NCBI GenBank assembly: GCA_050084515.1
Contig: CM114271.1
Span: 27,342,001 to 27,406,000 of the forward strand
Reading direction: 5' to 3'
DNA: 64,000 bases
Origin: Blasia pusilla
Lineage: Eukaryota
Shown: one piece after another, positions 31,695 through 59,100 of the stretch
Layout: each line of letters starts with the position of its first letter
How positions within the stretch are numbered: position 1 is the stretch's first letter
The notes under the pieces: generated by a model
Databases searched by the model: none
What the model was told of the DNA's origin: nothing
Seen by the model: the letters and a program-made list of their open reading frames with translations, nothing else
Position numbers and translations under genes: made by a program

Positions 31695-32854
31695 GGCTAT
31701 AAGCTGTTCAGGGATTCAAGTGCAGGCTCCAATTAAAGTGCAGACTTCAAGTGCAGGCTTAAAGTGTGAATTTTGTCCATTCGACCTGGGCAAGACCGGA
31801 CAGTACATAAATGGAACCGAACACCAAAATTATAGTGCACATAATAATAGACATGTTTTCCTGGATTACGATCTAAGCTTTTATCTATCACCATGGTTGA
31901 ATGTGTGGCACTGATAGCTACTTACGTGCAAATTGGCAAATGATACTCACGGACGCAAACAATTTCTCACATGAAAGTTACGGAGTGGACCCCATCCGCC
32001 TAATCCGGCTTGAAATCCGCGGTCCGCAGCTCGCATCAGTTCGACTTAGAACTAATCAAGCTCGTAATGAAATGCTAATACGCTGATAATCACAGCTAAT
32101 CACGGTCTCTGCTCTTCCTCGTTCCCTGTTTCTCCTCGCGCGCCCTTTGTATTCCTCGGTTCCGGGTCTATCGCTCGTAATCAAATGCTAATCTGCTCGT
32201 AATCAAATGCTAATCCCTCCGTGTTCGGTTTCTACCGCTCTTCTCCGTTCTTTCCAAAATGATCGGATCCCCTAATTCCCGCCCTAATACCCGTCGACAA
32301 ATTCTGTCATTTGAACTGGACCGAACGTAGTACGGATGGACGCCGTCCTTCCGATTAGCGCCGTCTCGTTTAGATCCGTCCGTCTCCGAATGCTGTCCTC
32401 CCTGTCCTCCGTCGCGACCTCTTTACCCTGAGTCGCGACCTCTCCATACCGGGGCTCCCGAACCTGAAACCTAGGCCCGACCCAGCTCGAGGTAGACGCT
32501 ACCCTAGGCGCCTTGAATGCGATTCCGGGACAAAGTATGGGCTTCGGTCATTAGGGTAAGTAAGTGCGACGCAGGATTTAAATTATTTTTTAAAATTTAA
32601 ATATTATTTAAAGTAAAATTTTAATAAATTGAAATACGGGTTGAAAACGAGGGAAAAAATTGCTAATGAAAGAGGATTCTAAAATAATTATAAAAAATTA
32701 ATTATTGTGATAAAATGAGGTAATAAGAGTGGAGACGTGGACTAGCTCTTGAAAATATGTGATATATATGCGTTTAAATTCCAATAAATATTATGGAAAA
32801 GTGGAATTAAAAAATTGAGGAGTGGAATTGTTTAAAGGATTGAGAGGTTACTCA

Positions 32855-37182: not shown

Positions 37183-38504
37183 CTTTATGCATGCTCAGAC
37201 AGGATGTACAGGTGTTAATCTTCTTCGATCTTAGTTTTGAATGGTGGATTAATAGGACTCTACGATGGTGTGCACATACAAAAGGAGTTAATTGTGATTT
37301 TCTGCACTTACCAAGATACAAGTTTTATTGAAGCTGAATTGTGGACAATTGTATTGAAGCTCCATGTAAATGGGTGGGATTTTTTATAGCCAGTGAGAAA
37401 ATTGGCACCCTGGAAAAGCAGGTATATTGCATGAAACATACAAGCTGTGTGCTTTGTTCTCAATCAGAGCAGGGTTGTCTGTGTGAACTGCTTAATGTTA
37501 AATCTCTAGAGTACAGGGTCAGCAGAGTTGGTGTTGGGTTAACCAACTTGTTGGTTAACCTTGAGTACTACACGGGAATTGGGTCTCGGATTGATGAGAT
37601 CTGCTGGGAAGCATTGGAAAATATGCCAGCGCAAGGTGCTTTCAAATTAGGAGCTGTTCTCTGAACGAAAGACGGACAAAAGTAGCTCACTGTCCAGACA
37701 TTTGCAGCTATAGTTATCAAAACATTTTAGGCGGATAATGTACCAATCGTGTTCTCAAAAGGGATATATAACGGTTTTATGTGACAGGAAGCCAATTTGA
37801 AGGAACGTTCTGGTGGGAGGATTTAAACTAATAACGGATTCAGAGCAGGACTGTGAAGTAGCTGCCCTTGTGAAAGATGAAATATTTGGATTAGTAGCAG
37901 TGGTTTTCTGTGTCAACGGTGACGGAACGCTGTCAACGGCAATCCCTGAACGCAGCAGATCTCATTGATCTGCGGTCGCCGCACTTCTAAGATGACACAT
38001 ATTTGCCAGCTCCTGTGGAACAGAACTTGTAGTCGGGCTATTGAAAGTCCGTTTTGAAAACCTCACTAAAGATCGTTCTTGCCGTTATTGAGGACATAAC
38101 CACGGTCGAATAACTATGCTACGTTTTTTTTATTATTATTGGAAAGAGCAGTTTTATTTGCAAATTATGTTACATTTTGTAACTAAGTTTTTATTTATAT
38201 TATTATTGGAAAACATGTTCTTATCTGTAAATGTTTGGATACGTGTTTTGAGGTCAACAAGAAAAAATTGTTTCACACATTGTGTATGACAAAAAATATT
38301 TTTAATTCATATAACACCATCATTTTTTTCATTATTCCTTTCAATTATAAGAACTCTTCGAACAATTTTATACTTTTCCAAGTCCTACTACTAGTTTAAA
38401 TTAAAAGAAAAGCAACATTGACGACAGAGTCGAACAAATACTTATATAATACGACTTTGCATGACACGCATTATTTCACACCATAACTATTATACGTTAT
38501 CCTC

Positions 38505-39561
38505 CTTCCGTTGTTACCATCCACGCCCTCCGGAGGCTCCGGAGCGGTTAACATCCCAACATTTGTACGTGACACAACCTTATACCTAGATCCGTCCCTC
38601 TTTGCAAGGGCACTCGAGAGTTCCCCTAGGATAGCAACTGGAAGGTTGTCCGGTATGATGTACGGACACCTTCGTGATTGCTTTCCCCCCGAGGACTCTG
38701 CTAACGGCTTTTCCGAGTTGCTTCAGGTTGCCTCTCACCTAGCTCAGGGGAGAGTGCCAACAACAGTAGCCCAGATATTAGGGGCGGGGCAACTTTTGGC
38801 GTTGTCGAAGGAGGGTGGAGGGATCCGTCTGATCGCCATAGGGGAGGTGCTCTTGCGGTTGGTGAGACGCTCTATCGCTTTGCAATTATGTGAGGCTTTC
38901 GAGTCACATCTGAGTCCGCACTAGTTTGGAGTTGCCACGCCAGCCGGTTGTGAGGCGGTAGCCTTAGGTTTGAGGGCTTGTTTAGATATACACCCTGAGT
39001 GGGTGGTTCTCCAGTTGATGTGGAGAATGCCTTTTAACTGAGTGTCTCGGGCATCTATCTTCACGGAGCTGAGAGACGTAGGGGATCCTATAGCGAGTCT
39101 GATTCCCTTCGTGCATGATTTTTATGGGGCCCCCTCGGCCCTCTATTTTCACCACGGTAGGTTCGAGGAGGAGGTCACGGTCTTGGAGTCTGCTACCGCG
39201 ACGCGTCAGGGTGGTCCCTTGGGTGGTGTATTGTTTGCTTTGGCTCATTATCAAGCGGTTCTTTCTACGGTGGAGGCTTTCCCGGGTTGCAATTTCCCTT
39301 CGTTGGCAGATGATACTCACTTTGGTGGCCCTGGAGACCTGGTCGTTCCTGCATTTCAGCACTTTTCAGCACAATTGGCACATGTTGGCCTCGCGGTGAA
39401 GGTGGGAAAGTGCGAGGCTTGGTCTTCATTAGGCTTGTCAGCAGATGTTCATTTACCCGAAGGTTTTTTGACACCTGTTGGAGGGCTTCGCGTCTTGGAA
39501 GTCCCACTTGGGAGCCATGACTTTGTATCGAGTTTTGTGGCGACAGCTCTTACCAAGGATC
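38505..39561 (+). mobile_element. Non-LTR retrotransposon, CRE-like, segment 1 (RT domain, disrupted)
   Basis: LLALSKEGGGIRLIAIGEVLLRL, SPH*FGVATPAGCEAV, TRQGGPLGGVLFALA, SLADDTHF, GLAVKVGKCEAW, GLRVLEVPLGS. Interrupted by Copia at 39562. Confidence 0.85.
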
Positions 39562-39866
39562 TGTGGAAAACTGCTAAACAAGCATAACTGGTGGAAACGG
39601 CACACACACACACACACACACACACACCACCATGGAGAAAAAAATTTGCAATGAGAGAATGAGTGGAGGCTGGTCCTCTTCTCAATTATAGAGGGTATGT
39701 ACAAGCAACCCTAACCCTAACCATAGTCTCAAGTTAGCCTAAATGTGATTAACTAACCCTAGTTAAGATAACTGACTAACCAAGATTAAGCTTCCCTACT
39801 TCGTGTGAGTGCCAAATGTAGCAGTTCAGGTATCTCATGAGCTTGACTGTAACTCAATCTTCAATA
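39562..39866 (-). repeat. Copia 3' LTR, contains (CA)13
   Basis: Direct repeat of 44540-44841; adjacent to the PPT. Confidence 0.93.
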
Positions 39867-42800
39867 CTCCCCCTCAAGCTCATATCGATATATCTAACGC
39901 CTAAATCCTTTCTAAACATCTCAAACTTATCTCTAGACAATGCCTTTGTAAAGATGTCAACAATTTGCTGATATGTACCTATATACACAAGATCAATTTT
40001 CCTGAAAGCACTTTCTCTCTGATAAAATGATAGTGCACCTCAACATGCTTTGTACGAGCATGAAACACAAGGTTATTAGCAAGCTTGATGCTACTAATAT
40101 TGTATGCATATATTACACTAGGTCCTAAGTTACTAACACCAATCTCAACAAGTAATCGATGAAGCCACACCGCCTCACATACTGCATTAGTTGCTCCTCT
40201 GTACTCAACCTCTGTTGAAGATAAAACAACTGTAGGTTTTATCTTTGAAGGCCAACTTATAGCTGCGCTTCCCAAAGTAAATGAATAACTAGATGTGGAG
40301 TGTCGATCAGACACGCTTCGTGCCCAATCAGCATCTGTGAATCCCTGTAATTGAAAACTCGGAGAAGGTTCAAATTGAAGCCCGAATTGAATAGAGAATT
40401 TCACATATCGTATAATCCTCCTCACAGCATCAAGGTGAGGTTTTCGAGGTGCTTGCATAAACTGGCTCACGAGGCCAACAACATAGCTCAAATCTGGTCT
40501 AGTTATAGTTAGATAGATCAAACTTCCAACCTTGCGCCTGTACACATTAGAATCTGCAAGCAGCTCTCCTTCATCCACTCTTAGCTTCACGCTCTGATCC
40601 AACAATATAGAGATTGGCTTACAAGCCGTCATATCATATTTTGAAAGCATATGAAGAGCATATTGTCGTTGTAGTAACCACATGCTGTCTCCAACCTTGA
40701 TAAACTCAATACCAAGGAAGTACTTGAGTTCTCCCAAGTCCTTCATATCAAATTCTGCTTGTAACTTAAGCTTGACTTGTTGTACCATTTCTTCAGTATT
40801 CCCAGTAATCAAGAGATTGTCAACATACAACACAATGAGAACTGTATGATCTTGTCCTCTCAACATATATAACGAGGAGTCAGAATCACATACCCTAAAA
40901 CCCAACTCTTGTAGGACGTATGCAATCTTGTTATACCAAGCTCTTGGAGCTTGTTTGAGCCCGTATAGAGCTTTCTTCAATCTACATACGCAAAATGGAA
41001 ACTAGGGATGCTCGTATCTAGGTGGTTGAGTCATATATACCTCCTTGTATAGATCTCCATTCAAGAAGGTATTCTTGACGTCCATGTGATGTAATCTTCA
41101 CTTCTTACTTACTGCAACTTCAACCACCGTTCTCGTAGTCGCCATCTTTGCAACAGGGCTAAATGTTTCCTCATAATCAATACCATATTGTTGTGCATAG
41201 CCCTTAGCCACCAATCTTGCTTTGTATCTATTCATTGTACCATCTTGATCGCGCTTGATTTTGTAAACCCATTTGCAATCAATAGCTTCCTTATCGGAAG
41301 GTATATCAACCAGCTCCCATGTTTGTTGATGTCTTAATGCAGCAAGCTCTTCCTCCATAACTTCAATCCATTCGGCTTTACTCGCAGCTTCTTCAAAACA
41401 ACTCGACTCCTACTCTTGAAGGGTAGTCATCATTTATGCATGATGTGTCGCAAGGAATGTGTAACTCTACTTGATGTATTGTAGAATGTGTAACTCTACT
41501 TGATCTGCGAAGTTGTTGTTAAGAGGTAGATGCCTTTGACACATGACTCGAGCTTTGACTAATGTTAACAGACTGAATATGTACTCTTTCCGTCCATGGA
41601 CTCACAGATTTAACGGATGAATCTAGGACCTCTCCTAATCCTGCACTAGTACTTGGGGAAGTTGAAGATAATGTCTATTGGTTTATAGTCATATTTTCCC
41701 CCTCAACAGAAAAGTTTAGAGGTGGAATAGGCTCAGATGGAGCATATCATGACTTTAGCTCATCAAAGACAACATCACAACTAATAATAAGCTGCCTAGA
41801 GGATGGAATGTAGCACTTATACCCTTAGTTCCATCAGCATAGTCAATGAAGATACATCTTTCAGACTTGGAGTCTAATTTCTGACGTCTCTCAGAAGGAG
41901 CATGAGCATGACAGATACAACCAAATACTTTCAAAAAGGAAAAATCAAGTTTACTTCCTGTGAAGACTTTGAATGGAGTTTTATCATGAACTCCTCTTGT
42001 TGGAGTTCGGTTGATTAAGAAGATTGTACATGCTATAACCTCCGCCCAATACACCTTAGGCATGTTCTTCTCATTCAACATAGCTCGTGTCGCTTTAGCA
42101 ATATGTCGATTTTTCCTCTCAACCACTCCATTTTGTTGTGGAGTGTAACGGCAAGTCACTTAACGTTGGATGCCATTCTGACGTAAATAGTCATGAAAAT
42201 CTATTGAAAGATACTCACCTCCTCGATCACAACGCAATTTCAAAATGCGTTGTCCAGTCTGCTTTTCTACTAGAACTCTGAATGTTTGAAACACTGAGAA
42301 TACCTTTGATTTGGCTTACAAAAATTATACCCATATATACCTAGAGAAGTCATCAATAAATGAAACATAGTACTGACAACCACTAAGGCTATGTTGTGAT
42401 ACTGTCCACACATCACTGTGGATCAACTCCAATATCTTGGATGCTCTTCTACCTTGCTTTGGAAAATGAAATCTAGCTTGTTTTCCAAATTGGCAAGCAA
42501 GGCATACCTCTAACGTAGCAAGACTTGCTAATTTAGGGACTCCTATTACTATATTAGATGATGAAAGACTATGTAATCTTTGAAGATTCCGATATGCAAT
42601 TCTTTTATGCCACACATTTAGATCTGTGACTTGTTGGCCAGTTTGACCATACATTGCTTCTTGAATCTTTGACATAGAAACATCTAATTTGAACATTCTG
42701 CCAGATCTAGTTCCTTTGACTATCGTAGTGTGGTCATCCATTGTTTCAATGAAATAACCATTTGGGTTAAACTTCACTTGATAATCCTGTTCAACTATTT

Positions 42801-44539
42801 GTCCTACAGAGATCAGATTTCTTACAATGGTAGGAACATAGAGAACATTTCCAAGAGCACAAAGATCGTGTGATGCTATTGGAACTTTACGGGTATGCGC
42901 GATATGATGTTGAGTGTCATCTCCTATGAGCACAATTGTAGGATCTTTCACCGGCTCCAAACTACTGAACCATTTTGCTTGTGAGGTCATGTGATTTGAT
43001 GCTTAGGAGTCAATGTACCAATCTGATGGCGAGTCTTTTTTGACCATTGCTCCCATATGATGAGTCATGACCAAGAGATGCTCCGTTTGTGAATGTTGCT
43101 ATTCTTGGTACTGCTCTTGGTGTTGTTGCTCCACATAGTTTTGTTATTGTAAGGCTCATGTTCTCATATCTGCCTTCTTCTTGAAGTAAAACTTTGCATA
43201 GTGACCCTTGATCCCAAAGTAATTGCAAGATCCAAGGACCCTCTGCTGATGACCTCGACCCCAACCGTTTCCACCATCACCACCATGTGATTGTGCCTGG
43301 TATTGGTTCGTAGTTGATTGAGTGCCTCTTCCTCCATATGCTTGATATTCACCACGACCACGTAAGTTTCTGCCACGACCCCTGCCTTTGTTTGATCCAT
43401 AACCTGCAAATAGCGCACTCTCTTGCAGACTAGATGAGCTACCGCTGTCTACTAGGCGCATCTCTTCACTGATCAACATAGGAACTAACTCTTGAAAGGT
43501 TGGATCCTTCTCTCTCACAAAGATAGAGGTCTCAAATGACTTGTAATCCTTTGGAAGGCCTTGAAGAGTGAATAAGATCAGATCATCATCTTCTACTGTC
43601 ACTCCAATGCTATTCAACTGATCAAAAATATGTCTGATACTCAAAATATAATCATTGATGCTCTACGATCATTTCCTCACTTCGTTCAATTGCTGTTTCA
43701 ATTGAAGCTTTCTGACCTTTGTAGATGTCTAGAATAGCTTTTCCAATGCATCCCAGGCCTCCTTCGGAATATCAACATCTTGGATGTGACGTATCATTGG
43801 CGAACTGATCGTTATTGAATTGTAGTGGATTACTTGCCTTGTGTGTTTGTTCCAAGCGCGAGCATTCAAGTCCATTGAGTCACCTTCTGGCTTGGCCTCA
43901 TCACCTATGACAAACTCCCCTAGTTCTTGACCCATGAGAAATTTTTTCATGCAAAACTTCCAGACAATGTTATTTTGCTTATCTAGCTTCTCGCCTGTGA
44001 TTGCTGTTAGGGAATACTCCATGATAAACAATTTCACTCACAAAAAATGTAATTTCACGCTTTCTACTGCTCCAATTGAAGCATAGACCACTCCAACACA
44101 GAAATCGACATGAAATTTTCCAAAATTGATCAACTGTATGAAAGAACTAGTCAAAATTGGCCTGAAGAGAGCAAACTACAGAACTTTTCTTCACTAATTG
44201 CAGTTTCCTACACTGAAATTGTTGTTGCAGGAGCTCAGAGTGTCAGAATCGAGCGATTTTGGGTACGATGGAAAGCTCTTGATAAGCTCTACAAGACGGC
44301 TAGAACTAGCCTTTGGTGGCTTTCTAGTCAAAGCGGACCCTGACGGCTGAATCGACCGGGAAAGCCCTAAAAAATGCCTCCAAAGTTTTATCACCATCAA
44401 AGCTCCACCTGAAATCTGCACCCACTGAGCTCTGAATAAAATTTCCTTCTCCCAAACTAAAATGGTTCCTTCTCTTGCGTGTCTTCTCTCTTCAAACACC
44501 AAGAATTTCAAGTGATGTTCTCCTCCCGCTCTGATATCA

Positions 44540-44841
44540 TGTGGAAAACTGCTAAACAAGCATAACTGGTGGAAAACGACTTTCACACACACACACCACC
44601 ATGGAGAATGAAATTTGCAATGAGAGAATGAGCGGAGGCTGGTCCTCTTCTCAATTATATAGGGTATGTACAAGCACCCCTAATCCTACCCTTAACCATA
44701 GTCTCGAGTTAGTCTAACTGTGATTAACTAACCCTAGTTAAGATAACTGACTAACCAAGATTAAGCTTCCCTACTTCGTGTGAGTGCCAAATATAGCAGT
44801 TCAGGTGTCTCATGAGTTTGACTGTAACTCAATCTTCAATA
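44540..44841 (-). repeat. Copia 5' LTR, contains (CA)6
   Basis: Direct repeat of 39562-39866; adjacent to the PBS. Confidence 0.93.
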
Positions 44842-45300
44842 AGATCTTCTCCATGTCGACAATCTCACGAGGATTGGTGACCCTCAAGTAGCTTATGGAA
44901 TCCTCTTGTCATGTTTTTCTGGTAGACTTGGTTATCTGTGTAGAACCGTGTGGACGTCTTGCCATATTTCTTCCTTGTATAGATCTTTTGATAGAAAGAT
45001 CATGCAGGCGTTTGGGGATCTTCTAGGACCCGACTCATTAGAGTGCCCCGCTAGGGAGTTAGCTCGTAGACAGGATTTTTGGCGGATTGCCTTTGGTGGA
45101 GTAGGTCTCATTGCGACTGAGTTAGTGGCATCTTCAGCTTTTAAGGGAGTTGGGCCACTGTAGCACCCCTCCTTTGCTCCCGATTTTTGGTTAGGGATAG
45201 ACCGCTACTTTTACAGTACGTTTCCCACGTTGAGGATGGTCTTTTCCCACTTCAGTCTTCACTCACAGCTTGTTGAGATTCCCTTCTTGTTGAGGCTAGA
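44842..45300 (+). mobile_element. Non-LTR retrotransposon, CRE-like, segment 2
   Basis: Removing Copia and one TSD restores the frame: ...ALTKD-LLHVDNLTRIGDPQVAYGILLSCFSGRLGYLCRTV...IAFGGVGL. Confidence 0.8.
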
Positions 45301-45884
45301 TGTCGTGCGAATCCACATCGTCATACAACATACATCGCTGACATACCATACGCACATACATACATAACATAGATGAGAGTATCCACAAACGCAAGTGTAC
45401 CACAACTGAAATCCGTGAAAGACCTACTGTTATAAAACACGTTTACAATCACATAAAATCGAGCCAAACCCACTCCACGATGGGAGAATCTAGGTCGAAG
45501 CTTGCGGGAAACGCCATAGCCAAGAGCTCTACTCACTACCAAGGCTAACTCCCAACGCATAGCAGGCTCAACTCAAAGAACGACGTTCTTTGAGGAAAGC
45601 CACCTTATATCCTCCAACCTAAGAGCGGGCCCTACTAGGAAAGTCACCCCCAAGTGAGTAACCCCCAACCCTATGTATGGAACCACATCTCTACCAAGCC
45701 ACTACGGTCCTACATAAGGAATGGCCTCTACCAGCACACCATACTCTACGACATAATCCGTATGGTCATGACAACGGTGTCGTCGTGCGAATCCACATCG
45801 TCATACAACATACATCATTGACATACCATACGCACATACATACATAACATAGACGAGAGTATCCACAAACGCAAGTGTACCACA
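45301..45884 (-). repeat. Gypsy 3' LTR region (LTR probably 45407-45884, plus a second partial copy of its first about 105 bp)
   Basis: 45302-45407 and 45782-45887 are direct repeats (106 bp, 3 mismatches). 45884 to 45407 reads TGTGG...TTTCA on the minus strand. Confidence 0.75.
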
Positions 45885-46059
45885 ACTCGCCCCCCTAACT
45901 GGCGGTTAGGTCCCTCTAACTCCCAGGTAGCCCTATACATCTACTACATGCTATACACCTTCTTGGGTGCCCGAATCAGAAGGCCGGGTGCTAGGTTGCC
46001 CCATCGTTAGTCGCACATCTGTAATCCATATCATGCAAAGATCAAGTCATCTACCTCTC

Positions 46060-46200
46060 CTAAGTACATCGAGGACAAACCCACCTTCCAGTAGGAACAA
46101 CATCCAAACGTGGAGTCAAACACATCATGTGCCAACCCCTAGAACACCGATCACACACCAACATACGGGCTGCGTTACCAGCAGACCCACACAACATGCA
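46060..46200 (-). other. PHD finger domain (C4HC3) at the C-terminus of the Gypsy integrase
   Basis: CMLC-x11-CDRC-x4-H-x2-C-x14-CPRC with the conserved W (GRWVCPRC). All eight ligands are present; stop at 46060. Confidence 0.9.
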
Positions 46201-49200
46201 CCTCAAGCTAGCACGTATCATGGCTAAGCTTGGGTCAACAGTACCATCCACATTTGGAAGATGACATGGCGCACAATTACGCACATGGTCCTTCCAAACA
46301 ACTCCATCACGACCCTCCAACATGAGAACTCCAGAAGCTAACACCTCACGCACTCGTAAAATAGTGCGGCCTGCCGTCACATCCAACGTTGTCGGGAAAT
46401 CTTCTGCAAATAGACATAGTCCCCACATGGAACCTCGAATCGATGGTCGATAACCTCCACCCGAATGGTTGCATACCGCAACGTATCCCTGTGTTGAGCA
46501 ATGGCAAGATTCTCAAAGGTCGTTGGCATAACTCTCCGAAAGAGCTCCGCCCCCGAGAACCCACCCTCATCCACATCTCTGGGTCATCAAGGTTCACCAC
46601 CTCACTAGACTCTGACAATTTTTCTTTGGCAAGTCCGGATCTCGCCGTATAACAGTAAAAAATAAGGTGAGAAGGAAGCCAAGGATGCTTGGCGATCGAA
46701 CCTATACCCCATGGCTAACCATGGCGACTAAATATCCAGTCTCCAAGATGCCCCTTCAGAGGCCATACTTGCGCAATGCCCTCTTCACCGTCTGAACCAC
46801 ACGCTCAGCCAAACCATCCGCCTCTGGATGATCTCGAGGCGTGGTCCGATGATCAATCAACGCCTTGTCACACAAGACACGAAACTCACCACGAAACTCA
46901 GACTGGTCGGTCAAGACGGTGGTGCACCAAAATGACTAAGCACTCTATCCGAAACGCATATGCCGTTCCTCACTTGCCTTGTCCGGTAATGCCACCAACT
47001 CAATCCACTTGGAGAAGTTCTCCACCATCACCAACACATATCGATGATGTCGCATACCAACGGTAACGGTCCCCATAAAGTCCACACTCCAACGGTAACC
47101 CAACCCCATAATAGGCAAGGGGTGTAATTGTGGTGTAGGGGCATTAAATGATGCCCTCACCCGGTCACAAACCATACAACGTGACACCAATCGCTGCACT
47201 GAGTATGCATGCCACGCCACCAATATTGGCCAAGGAGTAAGTTATACGACGCTTTACCCCAAAATGTCCCAACTCCTCATGGGCATGTCGCACAATGCGC
47301 TCTCTCGAGCCAAATGTGGCACTACTCGTACTCTACCATCCTCCCACACGCGGAGAATATGTGTTCCCTCCAATCGATACCTCTTAGCACGTTGAAGAAC
47401 ACGGTCTCGCTCCTTGGCACTCACTATGCCTGGCACCCTACTAGTCAGAGGAACTCCAACACCAACGCATCATCATGAATATCACGCTGATCCGTGCCAC
47501 CATCTCCAACCTTAGGATCTCAAGGTGGCCATCTACCCCTCGACTAGAGTAAGATATCATGTGGTCCTCCATACTAGAGTCCACCTAACCAACATAAAAG
47601 GCGGATGCATGCCAAACTGGCACCATCTCCTCATCAACCTCGCCATGCCATCTAGCCCCAGATTGTATCCTCTTGGCTAGTACATGGGTTCCTACTCAAC
47701 CCATCAAAGCATCAAGGTTGGCAACTCCAGGTCTATGTACCACCCGGAAGTAATACTCTGTAAGATAAGAGCCCACCGTGCAAGCTTCCCCGTAAGCTTG
47801 TCCGACTCCATCAACCACTTGAGCGGTGGTGATCAGTAACAAGGGTAAATGGTGCCAAACAAGTAACACCTAAAGTGTGCCCACACCCACACTCTTGCCA
47901 AGCACTCTCCCTCATATGAACTATAACGCGACTCCGCTGCATTATTCGAACAACTTGCATAGGCCACCACAAACTCCATGTGCTCATCATCATGTTGTGC
48001 CAACACCGCTCCAAGTCCCAACCTACTCCAATCAGTGTGTAATTGAAATGGACGCCCTCTGATAGGTCTCCTCAAGATAGGCGCCGCCACCAACTGGGCC
48101 TTAAGCTCCACAAAAGCTCTCTCCTGATCATCTCCCCATTGCCACTCTTGATCTGATTTCAGAAATTGGTTCAAAGGCTTTGCCATAGCACTAAATCCCT
48201 TCACATACCTCCGATAGTAGTTCGCCAATCCCATGAATGCTTGAACTCTACTCACATCTATCGGACGCGGAATAAGTGCAATAGCCTCCACCTTTGCTTG
48301 CTGAACTCCCAAACCACATGGATAGATCACATGACCCAAGTACTCAACATCCTCATGGAAGAACTTACACTTTCCTGGATGCAAACGTAGACCATGAGCT
48401 TTCAACCGCTCAAACACCATCTGCAAATGTATCTGATGCTCCTCCACCGTGTTATTGAACACCAAGATATCATCAATGTAACACCGAACAAAATCCAACC
48501 CGCTAGGATCTCGTCCATCACTCTTTGAAACTCGGCGGTGCATTCTTCAACCCAAAGGGTAAGAATTTCCACAGTACAAACAATCCTTGCCATGAGAGTT
48601 GACACCCCAAAATCTTTGTCTTGGCCTTGTCACTCTCCCGAATCGGCAATTGATGGTATCTGCCGAAGATCCAAAATCTGAAAATCTTTGCCTGTCCCAC
48701 CACATCAAAGATCTCTCAGGTGTAGGCATGGCATACTTATCGGCCTTGGTTTGCCGATTGATAGACGGTAATCTCCACACATCCGCCTATCCGTGTAGTT
48801 GCCATGCATATCCTTTTAGCGAGCATGACAGTGGGCGATGCATACTCTCCATGCGACAACTCCACTAATCCAGCCTCCAAAAGGTCCAACGTCCTACTCA
48901 ATCAAGTCCTCTCCATATCACTATATCGATAGGGACGACGGAAGATTGGCGTATCACTAGCCAAATCAATTAGTATACCGGGTCCAACCAGAGAACCCAA
49001 CTCCTTCATGCTAAAGGCAAAACAACTCCTATAAGCACGAGGAGGCTGTGTCAGCGTTGTTTCTCACCTCCCGTAAGCTTGGGCCCAAGTCATGGCTCCC
49101 AAGTCTCCTCCTTTGGCATACTAGAGGGAGAGGACGATGCCATTGGCTGCTACGCAACCCCCTCACAAGATGATACACCCTTAGCTACACCATCATCTGA

Positions 49201-49384
49201 GCAAATAACTCCTCCACCAGCAAGAGCAACCAACTCCACATGCCCAGCCATTACATCCCATCTACTCCAAGGATGCAAAATACTACTCTCCTCGCTTCAC
49301 CGATGCCTCTACCGCCCCGGTAGCCATCGAGCTCATTACAAGGGGTGGAAGACCCACGACATAGTCCAAGTCGCTGCTCGGCCA

Positions 49385-50325
49385 TACCAAGACTCAAAAT
49401 CCAAGTCAAACAATTCAGGTCCATGGCCTGACCCAACACATGACGTCGTGAAGCCTCGAAATAGAAGCAACCCATTTGTCACACGAAGAGCAAATCCCAT
49501 CGCACGCTCTCTCTCATCAGCGTTAGGCTCCACCAACTGTCGCACATGAGAATCCATACAAGCCCCGGACCACCTTCCCTGTAGGCATGTGACGAGGGAA
49601 AACTCACAAATGTGGGTAGTGCCATCCTAGGCTGGCCCACACGGTTCACCGATCAATAACCTTCACCACTTGGGAAAGTGGCCCAGTATCCAAGATACTA
49701 TCCACTGTAAGGCGAGGATCCCGCTGCACTGCATCATATGCTCGACGTAGAACCTCCCTAGGCAACAAGTTTGTCCACCACAAGCGTGGACGATGTGCAC
49801 GCAAGCCAAATCGCATTGCATCCAACAACACCGCTGGTCCAATCCAAGAGCGCACCTCATGAACACTCGCCATCATCCGGGTCCGAGTGTCACCCAACAA
49901 TGGAACATTCTCTAGAATCTAAGCTAGAGCACGTGCCTGATGAACCTGGAGATGTCGTAACACCCGTAACATCTCCCAAAACAATCGAGACCTAGGGTCA
50001 TGTAATCCCTCACCACGACCAGCACGTGTATGACCCTGACATGGCCATCCAGCAATCACCAAATCCACAGGACCAATTCTCTCAAGGTCTTGCGCCCCCA
50101 ACAATGCAATGTGTGATGGTAAAGCACGCTGGTACCCACGAATAGCTGATGGCGGCAACAACTCAGGATACCTCCGCATCAACTGACCAATATGTCGGGA
50201 TGAGACTCTCTGGGCCGTCTCATCTCGCTCCACATACACGTATCTCCAAGACAGAATACCGGCTTGCAACATCGCAACCAAACCAAAGTGCTAATCCCAC
50301 CAAAGAGATCTAACACACAAATGCC
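49385..50325 (-). pseudogene. C5 cytosine DNA methyltransferase domain (DNMT3-like) within Gypsy pol
   Basis: Motif I VLDLFGGIST; motif II-like YVYVERD; IV DLVIAGWPCQG; V-like RSRLFWEM; VI ILENVP; VIII AHRPRLWWTNL; IX ERERAMGF; X RRHVLGQAM. Frameshift near 50285, stop at 49919-49921, further lesions near 49645 and 49460. Confidence 0.92.
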
Positions 50326-53300
50326 CTCCGGCGGATATCGCCATACAATGGGTGTAGTATCCAAAGGGATAACCCAATCGGGCAGAAGTAGGAGTCCGTG
50401 GGGCCTCCTCTTCCTCGTGAGGTATAACAGACCTCACACCAAGCCTCTGCACTAGGCGATCGCCTCTGCCGTAGTGCACCGCTTGAACTCCAAAGTGGCA
50501 CATCCAACGATGAGGATGCCACTGCTGCAAAAATAGGGACCTCCTCTTCCTCCTCATGCGCAGGAGAATCCATAGAAGAAACAGTACCCTCCAAAAAGTC
50601 TCCTGGCCAAGTGACTACTCCACTAAAACCAGCCACGATGCTAACTTTGTTGGGAAGACCCTCTGGTCGAGCCCCGTAAATAAATCTCACAGAACTTGGC
50701 TCATACGTCCATCCGGACGCCAACCTGGTCTATAAGACGCTGTCTCGATCCAATAATCCATTTGAAAACCCATCGGGTACAATCGCTCCTCCAACTAGTA
50801 CATCATACGACTCGGCTGATGTGACTACCGCAGATACTCCCAATCGGGAGCTATCAGTCGCATGATCTGGTCTCAACTGTACAGAAAAATTCTCCCGTGT
50901 CATGAATTGAGACCTATCATTGGCTCCTCCAAGTGATGTTTGAATGTGGAATGGGCAAGGCTCAAGCTCTGACCTCCGAATACCCAAACCAATACATGCC
51001 GCCTTTCCCAACATCAAAGGTTGGGCACCAGAGTCTAACAAGACTCTATCTGGTCTATACACATGTCTTGTAGGACTCACCAATCGGAAGATCCCACTCC
51101 GGTTGTCCAACGTACATACACCAGGTGTAAGCCTCTCACGATCAATGGCTGGCCAGCCTGGTAATGCATCCATCTTCGCCGCGCCGCCTGGCAAGTAGCA
51201 CCGGTACTCAATGCTACTCGACATAGAGGGTCGCTCCACCGCAACGCCTCATCCACCTCAACACGTGCAAGAATAACACCCCCACGTTCACACAACGTGG
51301 TCGCTAATCAAATACTGAGAGCTAAGTCAATTCCTAAAGCCATCACTCCGTGGCGAAAACAATGGGAATCCCAACATGAAGTTGCCATCGCAATCTTGCA
51401 TTGATCTTTGCATCCGTGTCTACTACACGCGATGTAGATGCCTCGATCCCCACTGCCGGCTCAATAGGTGCGTGAGGAACCATGGATGGAGTCATAAGCA
51501 CCTCGGACAACAAGAATGATGGGAAGCCTAGCTCGCCTCCCGGCCTCACCCCTCTGTGGGTCCAACTCCACAAAGAGCACCACGTGGCTCGACGCTCGAG
51601 TGGCTCCTCTCAGAATCGCTGCCGGGTGATGCCTCAACCTGTCTTTGCACTCGCCATATAAGAGAGATCATCCCCTCCGTAAGAGGTGGAAGCCCTTGCT
51701 CCCGAACTGATCTATCTTTGGATACCTAGTAGCCAATTCTGCTCCGGCTCAATCCTGGTAGCCATAGCGAGCTCAGTAGTGGTAGGGGTAGCCACCGTGA
51801 GGCTCTCCAACCACTGGTCCACCTCTACCACCCCTACCACCCCTACCACCTCTACCACCTCGGCCTCCGGAGCTACTCCACCACGGCCACGGCCTGATCT
51901 CAACTCGGATGAAGATCAAAGCAACGCTCTCGAGGATGACCTAGTCTCCCAATGATCACACTGAGTTGGGGCCGACGAGGCCCATCCTCCAAAGTCCGTC
52001 TCCCATCCTCTTGGGGACAAAACTTCCTAACATGATCACCTCCACATGTCCAACATGACTGTCCCTTCTTTGTGGGGCAGCAAATGAAGGCAATGGTCTC
52101 TACACAAATGTCCCTCTAGGACTTGTGAGGTCGCATGTACCCCCACGACTCCCCTACTACTACCACCACCACTACTATGAGGGCGTGAGGTGGGCGGCTG
52201 AACACGAGAAGTAGTAGTTGTATCCCTCTTGAATGCGGATGTCACCACTCTCTCCTTCACCATGTTAAGCTCAATCTTCTCAGATAGAGCAAACACATGG
52301 GTCAATGTGGGTGAATCATCACTCATAAGAGTAGCATCACGCACCCTACGGCGCAAATCTCTCCAAGATCCCATACCAAAACTGGATTGCCTGATCCTCG
52401 TCACACCCAGGTAATTGAAATCAAGCGCGTGATACGCGTGTATGCCTCACAAAGACTCTCACCAGTCTTTCGCTCAAAGTCTTGAAGATTCCTCAACTTC
52501 TCCGTCTTCACTCCTTGATAGTTCTTCTTCAACCTCTTGAAGAACTCTGCAACCGGGCTAAACGATGGTGGGGCACTAGTACCTCCACTAGTACCCCCAC
52601 TAGTACCTCCACTGGTACCCCCACTCCGGCTCGCACTACCACCACCGGGCTCGGGTCATTTGGGTGGCATAGTAGGAGCACTACTACCAATACCACCATG
52701 GGTGATAGACACATAGCCTGGAGACCAATATTGTCTCCATGCCTCAATCTCAGCAACATGGTCCTTCCTAAACTCATGGTAATCATCCATGGGTGGTCCT
52801 TCCAAGTGCTGAAACAACCCCTTCCAAGCCAAGAAGGGTGTAAACAACGTGGCGTTCCGCAACATCTGCATATCACACCACGTATCAAACTCCTGCATGA
52901 AGTCCTCCAACTCAATGGTACCCACTGCACCCGAGTATCGTCGTGGGCCCTTCATGGCCCCATATCCACCGTCCATGTCCCAAATCAATGGAGCTGCAAC
53001 ACTCGATAACAACGTAGAAGACTCGGTGTTTGGAACACCCTCGTCCTCCTCTTCATCAACCGTCGGAAGTGGAAAAGGTAGCCGATACCTAAATCCACTC
53101 CGTGTGAAACCACCACCCTAAACCACGGTCCCCAACCAGACCACCCGACAGCTCCGTGATGACCAACGCCGATGCCGCACCACCACCAAATTACCAAGTG
53201 ACGTCGATGTCGCTATACTATTCTAGCTCTACTAGCTATGGGTGTAGGCAACCTAACTTGTCATCACCACAAGAAGTCTCCCACAATCTACTCGTCATCC

Positions 53301-53884
53301 CTCTAGCCTCACTACCGGTAGCACACAGGAGTAACACTACTCGAAATCAGCGTCAACCCTAACAATGGGCGCAAGCAAAAGCACGATGGAGGGATCCAAA
53401 CACAGAAATCCAACGACAACCCTCCAATCGCAAATGGAAATCAAGGTAACACAATCCACCAAACGTGGTGCCCTCTGAATCCACAAAACCCACCACACAA
53501 TTCTAACGCAATAGCTACTCCGCGCTGGTCGATGACGTGCTAGTAACGAGCAAAGACCTGAAAATATCACATGCATGGAGAGGCTACACCGTACTATGCG
53601 CTAGAGGTACATCAACCAAAAACCTGAGATGCATAAAGCGCCTAACACATCTCCAAACATAACCAAATGAGCTACAACAGTCTGTACACTGGCATAGTTA
53701 AGAACTCGGCAGTTAAGAGTCCTCCAGGCAGAATAGCCCCAAGATGGGTGACCAGTTATGCAAAACTAAAATCCCAAATCCTGCAAAAATTGCCTCTCGC
53801 CCAAGCAAGCAAGCTTGCTTGCTTGCTTCTTGCTCCGCCTCTCACGCCCACTCGTCCCGAGCTACCACGAGTTGCCTCGAAGAT

Positions 53885-54240: not shown

Positions 54241-55379
54241 GGGGCCGGTTTTGGCCCTTTGAGGTCTTTTTTTTTGGCTCTCTTTGCTCCCTCATTTGTA
54301 TCCTGATGGGTTTCCCATCATATTTGGGGTTCCCATCATATTTTCTATTTATTATTACATTTCTTCACGAGGGAGCCCTGTAGCGCGGACCATACCGCAG
54401 TTCGCGCTCATGATCATCAGAATCCCGACTCGAGAAACCCGCACAGGCCATGCACAGAATACGCAAGGAGTAAATATATAAATAAAATAATAAGTAAAAC
54501 GCACACTCTGAGTGCTGTGCTTATGATCGTTCTGTACAGACGGCTCTGCCTTAATCCATGTGAACTGGACGGACGAACGGAGGGATGGATGACATCGATG
54601 CGCTTACACTGGCAATTCCGTGGAATTGCTGCTGAGTCCTTCTGTTCGTCGCCGTTTGAGTCGACAGACAGACAGTAAGTAGGCTGTGACAGCCTACCTG
54701 TTTGACACACACACGGAGCTGATAGATGGCAGAGACGAGACAAATGGAAATATAGGCTCCCAACGTACGCCAGGTTTTAGAGTCTGGCGAGAAGCACGAC
54801 TGAAGAAATGAAGGGAGGGATGGTGGGAGCTAATGTCACCTAATTCCCTTATTTCATGGAAGAGTGCTAGGTCCTGTCTGTCTCCGTGCCGAGACAAGGC
54901 ATCCTCATTGACTCTGTTTGGGTGGTAGGTACCATATCTACAAGCAATCTCCATGCCAGCGTATGGAGTATGCCACATCTATTCTCTACAAGCAAGCGCT
55001 ATGCCAAGATTTGAAGGGGCGTGTTCGACTCTATTCGGGTCATGTCTACTCTGTACAAGCCGTTGTTGTTTGCTGCTGCTGCTACCTAGCTTCTTCTTCC
55101 TCTTCTTCTCCATGGATTTGGCCTATAGATCTTATATCCATGCTCAGATGCCCAAACACATGTCCCATATACTGCAAAACATGTGAGGAAGACCCGAAGC
55201 ACAAACGCCGGAAAGTGTGCTGCAAATGCTCTACATGTGGAGAAACCCTACTTGAGAAATGGGTGAGGGTGGACTGGAAGGTGCCTCACGTCTTAAGAGA
55301 CTCTAAGAAAGCAGAAATGAATGCCGAAAATGTCTGCTGCCACAAACTCTGTAACATCTGGAGCAATCCTATTGCAGAA

Positions 55380-55910
55380 ATGCCCAACGGTCTGGTCTGT
55401 CTGGTCCACATTGTGCAGCGACTGCAGCACCCGAGAGCAGAAACGTCGGAAGGGTACGTCGACGTAGTCCAACAGCTGCAGAAGCCGTAGCGCACAGATG
55501 CCAGAAGGTCTTGTCCACCATCTGCGGAAACCACACAGCAGAATATGGCGAAGGGTTTGCTCCACATCCTCCGACAATGGCAAAAACCATAGAGCCAAAA
55601 ATGCCGACAGGTCTTGTCCAAATTGTCCAACATCTGCAGAAACCCACCCCAGTACAGAAAAGCTGAAGGGCCTTGTCCACCTTGTCCAACATCTGCCAAA
55701 ACCCGAGAACAAAAATGCCGAAAGGGCTTGCTGCTTGGTCGACATCATCCAACATCGTCCACCATCTGCAGAAACCATGGAGTAAAATACCTTATGCTCT
55801 GCTCCACATTCTCTTATGTCTGCAGAAACCCTATGGTCCAGAAAGGTCTGGTCCAACAACTGCCCAAACCTTCGAGCAGGAATGCCGAAAGGGGCCTGCT
55901 CCAAATTCTC
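55380..55910. repeat. Degenerate tandem repeat (TTGTCCAACATCTGCAGAAACC...AATGCCGAAAGGG units)
   Basis: GTCCA(A/C)CA(T/G)CTGC..AA.CC and AATGCCGA recur roughly 8-10 times. Confidence 0.7.
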
Positions 55911-56100: not shown

Positions 56101-59100
56101 TTAGTTTTGAGCGGCTTTGTTTTGGAGCTTGATGAGTGAGAAGTAAGCCCCGCCCTCTCCCTTGGACAGCAACTCATTGTGTGTTCCTTGCTCGAGGATG
56201 CATCCACTTTGAATGACTGCAATTGTATCGCAGTGCTGGATCGTGGAGAGACGATGAGCTACAACAATTGTAGTCCGTCCCACCATGATTCTGTCGAGTG
56301 CATCTTGCACAACCTTCTCCGAGTGGGCATCCAAAGCGCTGGTTGCTTCGTCTAGTAGAAGTATAGCAGGGTTCTTCAAAATCGCTCGGGCAATGGCAAT
56401 TCTCTGCTTCTGCCCTCCGGACAGCTGCACCCCCCTCTCTCCCGTGTTGGTCTGGAACCCATCCTTCAACGAGCTGCAAGCGAGTCATTCAATCCTCCGA
56501 TGGTCAATTGCAGTTGATCGTCAGCAATGCAACGAGCCTCAGAGTGGCCATGGTGACTACGAGAGAGAGACTGACTAACTCTTCCACTCCATTCTTTGAA
56601 CCCTTAAGGTGGCAGAAGCTAATCACCAGAGGAGCTCTGGTGAATCTGAACAAAGAACGATTCAAGCTCAAGAATCCACAGGACTGCAGAAGTGGAAGAT
56701 GTGTTTTGTGGTGCAAAATGAGAGACCTGATGAAGGAGAACGCGTTGGCTGCTTTGGCAGCTTCCACAATCTCGGTCTCGGTGGCGTTGTCCCTGCCATA
56801 TGCAATGTTGTCCCTAATGGTTCCAGAAAACAACGTGGGCTCCTGACCAACCAGAGCTATGTGCGATCTCAGCGTTTGCAGATTCCAGTCTCGAATGTCC
56901 ACATTATCCACCTTTATCTTTCCCTTGAGAGGGTCGTAAAATCTGCCACCCATCACCCAGAGACAGATTCAAAACTACTTAGTAGTTTCATCAGATGAGC
57001 TACACATGTCTATGTTCCGCTCAGCAGAACCAAAATCTGGCTGCCTCAGCTGATGATTTTATGGAAAATGTGCCTTTCGCTGGGTTGTGTCAAATCTTCT
57101 TCTTCATCGATGAAAAGACCTCGATCTCGACAGCGAAAAGGCGAAAATAAAGAAAGAAATAAAGAAAGAAAGAAAAGGCGAAAACAAAGAAGAAAACGAA
57201 AAGAAAGTAGTAATCAGACAATGCTACACAGGTCAGTTGATAAAGCTGGTTCCATCAGCAGCTGATGATGATTTGTGTGAAATACACTTCATCGTCGATG
57301 TCTAGATGCGATGTGGAGGGTAATCACCTCTCGATCAAACCGATGATGGTGGATTTCCCAGAGCCACTCTGGCCAACGAGAGCAACGTTCTTGCCAGCTT
57401 TGACTTTGAGGTCGAAGTCTTTGAAGACGAGGATGTCAGGGCGAGCAGGGTAAGCAAAACTGACATCTTTGAGCTCCACATGACCTTGGACAGAGTCAGG
57501 CTTGTGGCTATTTTCATCGTCAGGTTCGATCTTGGTCTTCCTGTCGAGGATTCCAAAGAGTGTAATGATCGAGTTAGCTCCCTTGGCCAGATCTGATGTC
57601 ATGCTCCCTGCCTCTGCAATCATCCTTCCCGATGCCACCAGGATGAAGAAACACTTGAACAGATTCCCGAAGCTCAGCTCGCCCTTCTTCACGAGCTGGC
57701 CTCCCCACCAGAAGTCCAGAGCCCAAGTACAGTAGGTGCACATGGTGGCCGCCCCCAGGCCGATCCCCGCTATGGTGGCCCTCTTTGCAGCTTCTTTCTC
57801 AGGGGAAGCTTGCATGTTTCGGAACATGGCCATGACCTTTGCCTGGGCAGAGTAGGCAGTGATTGTTCGATGGTGGATCACTGCTTCGCTTGCAACCTGG
57901 TTCACTTCCTCCTGAGCTTCCAGCGTTAGATGGTACATGCTTTTCAGAAGGACCTTCTTGGCGTAGTAGCAAGTGATCACCAGAGGTTGGACGGCGATCA
58001 TCACGATTGCCAGCCTCCAGGAAATGATCAGCCCACCGATGCAGCCCAAAAGAATCGCTGCAGAGGTCTGGATGAGTAGAGAGATCCGGTCTCCCACCAG
58101 AGATCGCACCTGCACACATTCATCCAGCCATTGAGTCATCCAGTCAGTGATTGAAGGAATGAATCAGTCAGTCAGTCATTCTACCTGGTCGATTCGATCC
58201 ACTGTACTTCTTCTAGTGGATTGCACTAGCTCTCGTCTTGTTCTCCCAACCGATTGTACACGTTACGTGATTCTTATTCTTCCCATGGATTTTTCATGTT
58301 TTTCTTTTTCTTCTTCTTTTCCTCATGGATTGTAGTGTGATTCTTCCACGTCCCATACAGTGTATAACCTCTCTGATTCTTCTTCCTCTTCTCACCATGG
58401 AGTGTAATTCTTTTGTGATTCTTCTTCTTCTTCCTCCCATACATGGATTGTACTAGCGCTGTGATTTCTCTGCTTCCCATACAGTGTATAAGCCCTCTAA
58501 TTCTTCTTCTCATTGACTGCAGTGCAGTATCTCTCTGATTCTCCTCCTCCTTCTTCTTCTCCCCATGATTGTACATTTTATGTGTTTCTTCTTCTTCTTC
58601 TTTTTACTAAGGATTGTACTAGCACCTGCGATTCTTCGACTTCTCAAACTGTCCATAACCCCTCTGGTTCCTCTTCTCATAGATTGCACTAGCTCCGTGA
58701 TTCCTCAACTTTCCATACGGTGCATCTGCTCTCTAATTCTTATCCTCCTACTCCTCATAGATTGCACTACCTCTCCCTTTCTTCTCCCCATAGATTATTC
58801 TAGTTTCTTTATTTTACTTTTCCCTTCCGTTCTAGCTGTTCCTCTCCCCATAGATCGTGCAAACTTTTCCACCCTTCTTCATCTTCTCCTCCTCAAAGTT
58901 CTGCTGACTCCACTTCTCCCAACAGATTGCACATCTCTGAATGTTTCACTGCTGTAGACAGGCTCAAGGTTTAACAACGACGATAGCAGATCATTGATCT
59001 CGAGAGATCTGAAATAAGAAGAGGAGCATAATGATGTGGTAGAGAGTACTCACGACAGTAGCCTCAGTGGCGAGGCGTCCACAGATAGCACCGCTTGAAT

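What the first reader, a model, noticed from the sequence alone, without database searches (positions are those of the whole stretch)
46060..46428. PHD finger in place of a chromodomain at the Gypsy integrase C-terminus
Seen: a C4HC3 PHD with all eight ligands ends the pol region, preceded by an SH3-like tail of integrase. Established: chromoviruses use a chromodomain at this position for integration targeting; PHD fingers read H3 tails, and cellular DNMT3 relies on a PHD-like ADD domain that reads unmethylated H3K4. Inference: it steers integration to a histone state, and possibly the co-encoded DNMT as well.
Basis: partly seen in the sequence, partly recalled or inferred. Interest (0 to 1): 0.7.

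Follow-up and report, generated by a model that had tools for sequence, protein, structure and literature searches.

The report
PHD finger on retrotransposon integrase
A broken copy of an abundant plant jumping gene ends its integrase in a genuine histone-reader (PHD) finger; this is the normal tail of an old green-plant retrotransposon lineage that also carries a DNA methylase, and it probably helps new copies avoid active gene starts.

Summary
The PHD is real (PF00628, E 5e-11; eight ligands, 46068-46200, minus strand). This copy is dead, with many frame breaks, but 12 sibling copies picked for long frames (of 150) join integrase and PHD in one frame. The element is of the KnitGypsy-Dnmt3 kind: DNMT3-like domain before RT, A..B-A-B repeats, 4-bp target duplications (6 of 7). 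'In place of a chromodomain' holds for position only: the PHD elements form their own RT clade, from Chlamydomonas to liverworts, not nested in chromoviruses. The finger belongs to the unmethylated-H3K4 reader class (0 of 211 have the cage tryptophan; nearest folds ATXR5, DPF2, ORC1b), but this branch lacks the acidic wall and is basic. Best reading: it tethers integrase to K4-unmethylated nucleosomes (about 0.5; binding and targeting not shown). Steering the DNMT is unlikely here: relatives lose either domain alone. PHDs in algal Gypsy polyproteins are in print, and the scan noted this feature three times before in other genomes. I found no paper stating the clade-wide PHD plus DNMT3 pattern, including chlorophytes.

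The parts
46066..46200 (-). PHD finger (C4HC3), last domain of pol; stop at 46060-46062
   Evidence: PF00628 E 4.8e-11; ligand positions
46201..46255 (-). Linker between barrel and PHD; length fixed across the clade
   Evidence: 20 residues from the end-of-barrel motif to the first Cys in 170 of 191 proteins matched
46254..46435 (-). SH3/Tudor-type barrel of the integrase C-terminus; first strand scrambled by frame breaks in this copy
   Evidence: AF2 and VIA-align on sibling L031; frame map; limits approximate
46461..47305 (-). Integrase HHCC zinc finger, DDE core and following helices, broken into several frames
   Evidence: tblastn of L031 frame; PF17921 and PF00665 in L031/L032
47750..48900 (-). 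Reverse transcriptase and RNase H, frameshifted
   Evidence: PF00078, PF17917, PF17919; frame map; limits approximate
49380..50331 (-). DNMT3-like C5 cytosine methyltransferase, between protease and RT, broken
   Evidence: PF00145 E 7.7e-08; sibling L042 best PDB matches DNMT3B/3A E 2e-09, ahead of DRM and bacterial enzymes; frame map
50700..51100 (-). Aspartic protease
   Evidence: tblastn to residues 669-783 of P0125, whose 663-711 is PF13650
51900..53000 (-). Gag region (inferred from position and weak match to the N-terminus of P0125)
   Evidence: no Pfam match
45782..45887 (-). Repeat B1 (about 107 bp)
   Evidence: 97% identical to B2
45408..45773 (-). Repeat A2 (about 370 bp, starts TG); its twin A1 opens full-length copies
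45301..45407 (-). Repeat B2, 3' end of the element (ends CA)
   Evidence: common end point of sibling alignments
45301..53882 (-). Whole element as present here; A1 and part of the 5' leader are missing
   Evidence: siblings align to 53882 and continue into shared leader and A1 that the window lacks

Best explanation
The PHD is the chromatin-docking tail of the integrase of an old green-lineage Ty3/Gypsy clade. SHOWN: one frame RNase H - HHCC - DDE core - SH3 barrel - 20-residue linker - PHD; DDE-type insertion (TG..CA ends, 4-bp target duplications); clade-wide conservation of the finger; residue pattern of readers of the free H3 N-terminus. INFERRED: after polyprotein processing the PHD stays on integrase; it binds H3 A1 and R2 when K4 is unmethylated and is repelled by K4me3, so the integration complex lands on nucleosomes away from active promoters, i.e. 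in intergenic and repeat-rich chromatin. In this land-plant branch the grip is probably weak and unselective among K4-unmethylated states, and may be helped by the finger's basic surface contacting DNA. The DNMT3-like domain works separately (most likely on the element's own new DNA; inference). The copy in the window is a dead, 5'-truncated relic.
For: In-frame fusion. 114 of the best 120 and 117 of the best 120 longer homologues list PF00628 and none PF00385 (query included the PHD). Of 263 proteins with this clade's barrel profile 245 have a PHD directly behind it, 0 a chromodomain, 18 neither. 0 of 211 distinct fingers have Trp two residues before the His (the methyl-K4 cage position, recalled; the cage Trp as hallmark is stated in PMC5415848 passages), 202 of 211 keep Asp after the third Cys. 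Top structural matches: ATXR5 PHD-H3 Z 9.3, rmsd 1.5, 52 aligned; DPF2 9.2; ORC1b with unmodified H3 8.6; sequence matches likewise KMT2C/D, CHD4, DPF2/3, ATXR5, KDM5 PHD1, BHC80, BAZ2, UHRF1, with no ING, BPTF or TAF3 among the 60 shown of 80. By spacing from the third Cys (my mapping), ATXR5 D41 (R2), P60 and G62 (A1 pocket) (PMC5499861 passages) have the same residues here. Complex prediction with the host H3 tail: score 0.37, best of 3 controls 0.02, runs agree 97%, partner pLDDT 53; the tool calls this weak (at 0.60 or under: 5 of 78 solved complexes and all 4 of 180 mismatches that passed), peptides are untested and like complexes are solved, so it may be likeness only. Exact 4-bp duplications in 6 of 7 assessable copies, 10 examined. 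A PHD-bearing Chlamydomonas Gypsy inserts intergenically 2.6 times more than chance (PMC9940879 passages; authors leave targeting versus selection open).
Against: No binding or insertion-versus-chromatin data. The window's finger has net charge +5, Ser where ATXR5 has the second R2-binding Asp (D44), and no acidic wall; 0 of 17 nearest relatives have the wall whereas 84 of 114 in the chlorophyte-type group do; loss of that patch weakens BAZ2A binding up to 17-fold (PMC5415848 passages). Flanks of copies are not significantly more repetitive than evenly spaced control sites: 15 of 31 against 18 of 60, Fisher p=0.11. A subclade of 8 rows including Closterium persists without a PHD (6 reach past the barrel with no finger), so it is dispensable. 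Within-genome pairwise dN/dS is no lower for the PHD (0.79, 42 copies) than for the core (0.60, 28 copies), though the copies were picked by similarity to the PHD region and are decaying. ATXR5's own PHD contributes little to nucleosome binding and acts on cofactor binding (PMC5499861 passages), so a reader fold need not be a tether.
Confidence: 0.5

Rival explanations
1. In this land-plant branch the finger has drifted from histone reading to a basic, non-specific DNA or nucleosome contact that raises integrase affinity without choosing a chromatin state.
For: Net charge +5 here, -1 to +4 in 17 nearest relatives, none with the acidic wall, against a median of -5 in the chlorophyte-type group; second R2 Asp lost. 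No significant flank bias.
Against: The A1 pocket spacing and the Asp after the third Cys are kept; weak predicted H3 complex above controls.
Confidence: 0.2
2. The PHD is a structural or protein-interaction module of the integrase or particle (packs on the barrel, oligomerises, or binds a non-histone host factor) and does not touch histones.
For: Linker length fixed at 20 in 170 of 191, with conserved Ala-Pro-Cys-His before it, suggests a set geometry; the ATXR5 PHD binds its own catalytic domain (PMC5499861 passages).
Against: Surface residues that matter for H3 binding rather than for the fold are conserved (202 of 211); pTM 0.58 gives no firm barrel-PHD packing.
Confidence: 0.15
3. The PHD serves the co-encoded DNMT3, like the ADD domain of animal DNMT3, directing or licensing methylation on K4-unmethylated chromatin at the insertion site.
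For: Both domains are clade-wide; in 88 of 120 long homologues the DNMT sits directly before integrase, where it could stay on one protein with the PHD; catalytic Cys kept in 23 of 23 and 107 of 115 DNMT domains of the two layouts.
Against: In this family DNMT and PHD are separated by RT and RNase H. Independent loss: DNMT without PHD (P0278, P0279, P0282, P0300, P0258) and PHD without DNMT (P0156, P0178, P0216). The finger is a C4HC3 PHD, not an all-Cys ADD (recalled definition).
Confidence: 0.1
4. The finger reads methylated H3K4 and steers insertion toward genes.
For: Some matches are to PHDs reported with K4me1 (EHD3 9vno).
Against: 0 of 211 have the cage Trp; top structural neighbours are complexes with unmodified H3.
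Confidence: 0.05

Closest known systems
KnitGypsy-Dnmt3 of Klebsormidium nitens (de Mendoza et al. 2018, PMC5890265; passages and text of 3 supplement files searched; figures not seen); 'streptophyte Gypsy-DNMT3' in bioRxiv 10.64898/2026.05.21.726589 (passages, section 7)
   Same: Gypsy pol with an intronless DNMT3-like domain; DIRS-like A-coding-B-A-B repeats; two Klebsormidium proteins (KFL_015960010, KFL_005000010) are integrase-PHD homologues.
   Different: The paper's text and held supplements never use the word PHD (Fig. 4c may draw it) and calls the capture specific to the K. nitens lineage; here it is a land-plant family at about 5% of a 200-kb sample, and relatives with the same DNMT occur in chlorophytes in a second position.
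Gypsy-7a_cRei of Chlamydomonas reinhardtii (PMC9940879 passages)
   Same: Gypsy Gag-Pol with a PHD; authors propose it limits harmful insertions; intergenic bias.
   Different: 15.4 kb with near-normal LTRs; position of its PHD is only in a figure I could not see; no DNMT named in the legend; I did not test whether it belongs to this clade.
REM1 of C. reinhardtii (Perez-Alegre et al. 2005; not held; seen only as a citation in PMC6673714 and PMC8557442; details recalled)
   Same: Gypsy-related element with a PHD proposed for target choice.
   Different: As recalled, PHD and chromodomain lie in a separate antisense ORF, not on integrase.
Chromoviruses (Tcn1, Chlamyvir, Tekay; Gao et al. 2008 as cited in PMC6673714; PMC3350952 and PMC6317226 passages)
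   Same: A histone-reader domain after the SH3-like integrase tail: works like one.
   Different: Different reader (PHD, no methyl cage), separate RT clade, divergent barrel without the Gly-Pro-Tyr/Phe motif seen in this genome's own chromoviruses, split repeats instead of paired LTRs.
ATXR5, DPF2/3 PHD2, ORC1b, BAZ2A/B, KDM5 PHD1, UHRF1 fingers
   Same: Fold and A1/R2 pocket pattern.
   Different: This finger lacks the second R2 Asp and the acidic wall and is basic.

Membership tests
PHD finger | C4HC3 ligands with PHD spacing and Trp before the last pair | tested here: met
PHD finger | Cross-braced fold | tested here: met
   predicted model, pLDDT 86-95 over the finger; Z 9.3 to 5vab
H3K4me3-reading PHDs | Cage Trp before the His ligand | tested here: not met
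   Gly here; 0 of 211 in the clade
H3K4me0-reading PHDs (ATXR5/BAZ2/KDM5-PHD1 type) | A1 pocket (Pro-x-Gly-x-Trp) and Asp after third Cys | tested here: met
   sequence mapped by spacing on PMC5499861 residues; 202 of 211
H3K4me0-reading PHDs (ATXR5/BAZ2/KDM5-PHD1 type) | Second R2 Asp and acidic wall | tested here: not met
   absent here and wall absent in 17 of 17 nearest relatives
H3K4me0-reading PHDs (ATXR5/BAZ2/KDM5-PHD1 type) | Measured H3 binding blocked by K4 methylation | not testable with these tools
   only a weak prediction, 0.37 against 0.02; methylation cannot be modelled
KnitGypsy-Dnmt3 kind | DNMT3-like domain inside Gypsy pol | tested here: met
   L042 frame runs from the protease side through the DNMT, L035 has DNMT and RT in one frame with one stop between
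KnitGypsy-Dnmt3 kind | A-coding-B-A-B repeat layout | tested here: met
   A1 found at the 5' end in 9 of 10 copies checked (8 of 9 extensions, one of them partial, plus L042); the window copy has lost A1
KnitGypsy-Dnmt3 kind | RT groups with Klebsormidium elements | tested here: inconclusive
   KFL_013780010 lies in the same large clade, but which Klebsormidium proteins are the published elements was not established
Chromoviruses | Chromodomain after integrase | tested here: not met
   0 of 263 proteins with this barrel have one behind it; frame ends after the PHD
Chromoviruses | RT nested in the chromovirus clade | tested here: not met
   nesting rejected AU p=0.02, sister position not rejected p=0.54; no named Tcn1/CRM/Reina references in the tree
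Phygy/Selgy non-chromoviruses (PMC6317226) | Paired LTRs, NCGN 4-bp target (Phygy), RT clade | tested here: inconclusive
   4-bp duplication shared, but 0 of 6 exact duplications are NCGN and the repeats are split; no Phygy or Selgy sequence was available for the tree
DIRS/PAT tyrosine-recombinase elements | Tyrosine recombinase, no target duplication | tested here: not met
   DDE integrase and 4-bp duplications; only the repeat layout is shared

The most novel reading that the evidence does not exclude
An unclassified Ty3/Gypsy lineage older than the chlorophyte-streptophyte split whose hallmark is integrase-SH3-PHD plus a DNMT3-like writer (moved once between two pol positions), forming a second chromatin-targeting system parallel to chromoviruses: it reads unmethylated H3K4, inserts with a DDE integrase from DIRS-like split repeats whose internal B-A junction is a palindromic end-to-end site, and in algae adds a Tudor barrel and an amino-methyltransferase-like domain behind the PHD.
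Probability: 0.3. Interest if true: 0.7.

Novelty: new member of a known kind. Interest (0 to 1): 0.4.

Why it matters
Chromodomains are the only well-tested histone readers that aim LTR retrotransposons. A whole sister-level lineage using a PHD of the unmethylated-K4 class would be a convergent, negative targeting rule (avoid active promoters rather than seek a silent mark), testable with a 50-residue domain and existing ChIP maps. The family is large (9,333 of 200,000 sampled bases, 10 of 20 windows) and has split repeats that paired-LTR finders would be expected to miss (inference). The homologues also extend DNMT3-carrying Gypsy elements beyond Klebsormidium to liverworts, Closterium and chlorophytes. 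The single window feature, though, is one dead copy of a described kind.

Tried and rejected
Single-sequence AF2 of barrel plus PHD failed (pLDDT 36); repeated with an alignment. Pfam SH3_Tf2-1 did not hit this family's barrel (one relative, P0197, lists it), so the barrel rests on the model. Within-genome dN/dS (0.52-0.79) was set aside as uninformative: copies chosen by similarity and decaying; 34 of 42 keep all eight ligands. Flank repetitiveness 15 of 31 against 18 of 60, p=0.11: underpowered, small library, controls three per window, cannot separate targeting from selection. Bases at insertion sites show only an A/T lean at positions 1 and 7 in 31 flanks; not pursued. No RNA holder listed among 21 runs; no conclusion on expression. 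Laying four runs gave contigs from many copies and could not tell whether this copy's frame breaks are real or assembly errors; the many small indels at about 6-10% divergence leave that open. RT-only homologue search as a control for query bias: all chromodomain-bearing hits fell outside the PHD clade in the tree. Trees: FastTree, 224 RTs; a hand-picked 69 rows (75 named, 6 dropped for lacking contiguous RT+RNase H), LG+G4 quick search; this genome's family is only. Literature: searches and word look-ups in PMC5890265, PMC6317226, PMC3350952, PMC6338049, PMC7466625, PMC8226300, PMC11982613, PMC12344493 (passages only) found no statement of a PHD at the integrase end as a clade mark or of DNMT3 in chlorophyte Gypsy elements; REM1 paper, Craig's thesis, Repbase, figures, bioRxiv supplements and REXdb sequence files could not be seen and may hold it.

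Full report
Observation. The minus strand holds a 150-aa open frame at 46063-46512 whose last 45 residues match Pfam PHD (E 4.8e-11). All eight ligands are present and the frame stops one residue later; the pattern is found once in the window and never in 60 shuffles. The preceding 60 residues fold as an SH3/Tudor-type barrel in a sibling copy.

The element. It runs from 53882 to 45301: gag region, protease, DNMT3-like methylase (PF00145; best solved relatives DNMT3B/3A), RT, RNase H, integrase, barrel, PHD. The own genome (390 Mb, 26 contigs) gave 12,644 candidates, of which 150 were scored and all matched; the family covers 9,333 of 200,000 bases in 20 evenly spaced windows. Twelve copies picked for long frames all join integrase sequence and PHD in one frame, two with the whole core. 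There are no paired LTRs: copies begin with a 370-bp repeat A and end B-A-B, with TG..CA termini and exact 4-bp target duplications in 6 of 7 assessable copies (10 examined). This is the repeat layout reported for KnitGypsy-Dnmt3 (PMC5890265, passages). The window copy has lost its 5' A. The nearest named proteins are from liverworts (Calypogeia 82%; Marchantia RT 83%).

How wide it is. Of the best 120 homologues of the integrase-PHD region 114 list PF00628, and 117 of the best 120 longer ones; none lists a chromodomain. Named hosts are Calypogeia, Marchantia, Klebsormidium, Chlamydomonas reinhardtii and C. eustigma, Haematococcus, Tetrabaena, Pleodorina and Scenedesmus. Local profiles show 88 of the 120 long proteins as RT-RH-DNMT-INT-SH3-PHD and 12 as DNMT-RT-RH-INT-SH3-PHD; all named chlorophyte members have the first layout, this family and named streptophytes the second. 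The DNMT domains of both layouts align and mostly keep the catalytic Cys (23 of 23 and 107 of 115); the first layout forms one side of a branch (99) apart from one long-branch row, as in the RT tree. One old capture and one move is the simplest account, but the trees are unrooted and lack host DNMTs, so two captures are not excluded.

Not a chromovirus with a swap. An RT-only search supplied outgroups. In a 224-row RT tree, 163 rows including all PHD-tailed elements are split from 61 others, this genome's chromoviruses among them, at support 98. In a 69-row RT+RNase H tree the PHD group has 99 and the chromovirus-type group 100. Nesting with algal chromoviruses is rejected (AU p 0.02); a sister relation to all chromoviruses is not (p 0.54). 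Of 263 proteins with this barrel, 245 are followed by a PHD, none by a chromodomain. The resemblance is positional and functional.

What it reads. Sequence and fold neighbours are readers of the unmodified H3 N-terminus (best ATXR5, Z 9.3). None of 211 distinct fingers has the cage Trp; 202 keep the Asp after the third Cys. Mapped by spacing on the ATXR5 contacts (PMC5499861, passages), the A1 pocket and one R2 Asp are present, the second Asp is not. Against a strong grip: net charge +5, no acidic wall here or in 17 of 17 nearest relatives, whereas 84 of 114 chlorophyte-layout fingers have it (its role from PMC5415848, passages). A complex prediction with the host's H3 tail scored 0.37 against 0.02 for the best control, which the tool rates weak and possibly from likeness to solved complexes. 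Flanks lean repetitive without significance (15 of 31, 18 of 60, p 0.11). I put tethering to K4-unmethylated nucleosomes at about 0.5, a basic non-specific anchor at 0.2, a structural role at 0.15.

The DNMT link. Here DNMT and PHD are separated by RT and RNase H. A subclade with Closterium keeps the DNMT and has no PHD, and P0156, P0178 and P0216 keep the PHD with no DNMT. Neither needs the other; I give 0.1 to the PHD serving the DNMT in this family, more in the chlorophyte layout, where DNMT adjoins integrase.

What is known. PHDs in retrotransposons are called widespread and proposed as integration guides (PMC6673714); Gypsy-7a_cRei has one in Gag-Pol and favours intergenic sites (PMC9940879); PHD-retrotransposon fusions were surveyed (10.1101/2021.11.30.470311); DNMT3-Gypsy is described for Klebsormidium and cited as streptophyte. 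All were seen as passages, plus one section of the 2026 preprint. My searches found no text naming this clade, its integrase PHD or its chlorophyte DNMT, but figures, Repbase, a thesis and the REM1 paper were not visible. Three earlier scan notes from other genomes reach the same filing; I had that reading before looking and do not count them as support.

Verdict. Real and correctly seen; a new land-plant member of a described kind; mechanism plausible and narrowed to the unmethylated-K4 class but unshown. Interest 0.4, carried mainly by the clade-wide picture.

Noticed in passing
window 45774-45781 and L002-L041 (B1/A2 junction): The internal junction joins the element's 3' end motif to its 5' start motif. 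In 23 of 26 copies matched the spacer is 2 bases, mostly GC, which makes a palindrome like an end-to-end circle junction; the window copy has a longer variant. It may template or be cut to give the integrase ends; how a DDE element replicates from split repeats is unexplained.
   Followed up: partly
P0180, P0153, P0176, P0057 and other chlorophyte-layout proteins, after the PHD: Of 248 PHD proteins, 135 have a Tudor-like barrel after the PHD and 94 a domain resembling an amino (N6A/N4C) methyltransferase (DP-F/W-x-G-x-G in 32 of 94; SPWF/SPFF/SPPF-like motif in some; PF02086 E 0.0035 below cut-off in P0180). These would be dual-methylase elements distinct from the chromodomain EpiLTRs of the 2026 preprint.
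   Followed up: partly
P0254 (Haematococcus), residues 1461-1583: A chromovirus-type polyprotein with a chromodomain directly followed by a PHD: apparently a separate PHD gain; could be a gene-model artefact.
   Followed up: no
P0010, P0033, P0248, P0286 (Marchantia Mp7g09570, MARPO_0060s0038, Mp2g26090, MARPO_0091s0058): Annotated Marchantia genes are pieces of this element family (DNMT, RT, integrase, PHD) and could inflate counts of host PHD or DNMT3 genes.
   Followed up: no
P0158 (C. reinhardtii CHLRE_09g398141), residues 1244-1533: Holds a DNMT3-like domain that Pfam misses, with degenerate catalytic motifs; P0127 likewise.
   Followed up: no
window 39615-44841: Copia element with LTRs 93-94% alike, apparently inserted in a LINE-like RT remnant whose pieces lie at 38487-39587 and 44843-45163 (read by eye).
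   Followed up: no
G000 whole genome: Chromodomain search gave 1,636 candidates, 150 scored; 8 fetched were chromovirus integrase tails, so both reader strategies coexist in one host.
   Followed up: partly
window 20935-22775, 55375-55831, 58336-58880: Degenerate tandem or short repeat arrays, and a 90-nt inverted pair at 20711-20800 and 32462-32551.
   Followed up: no
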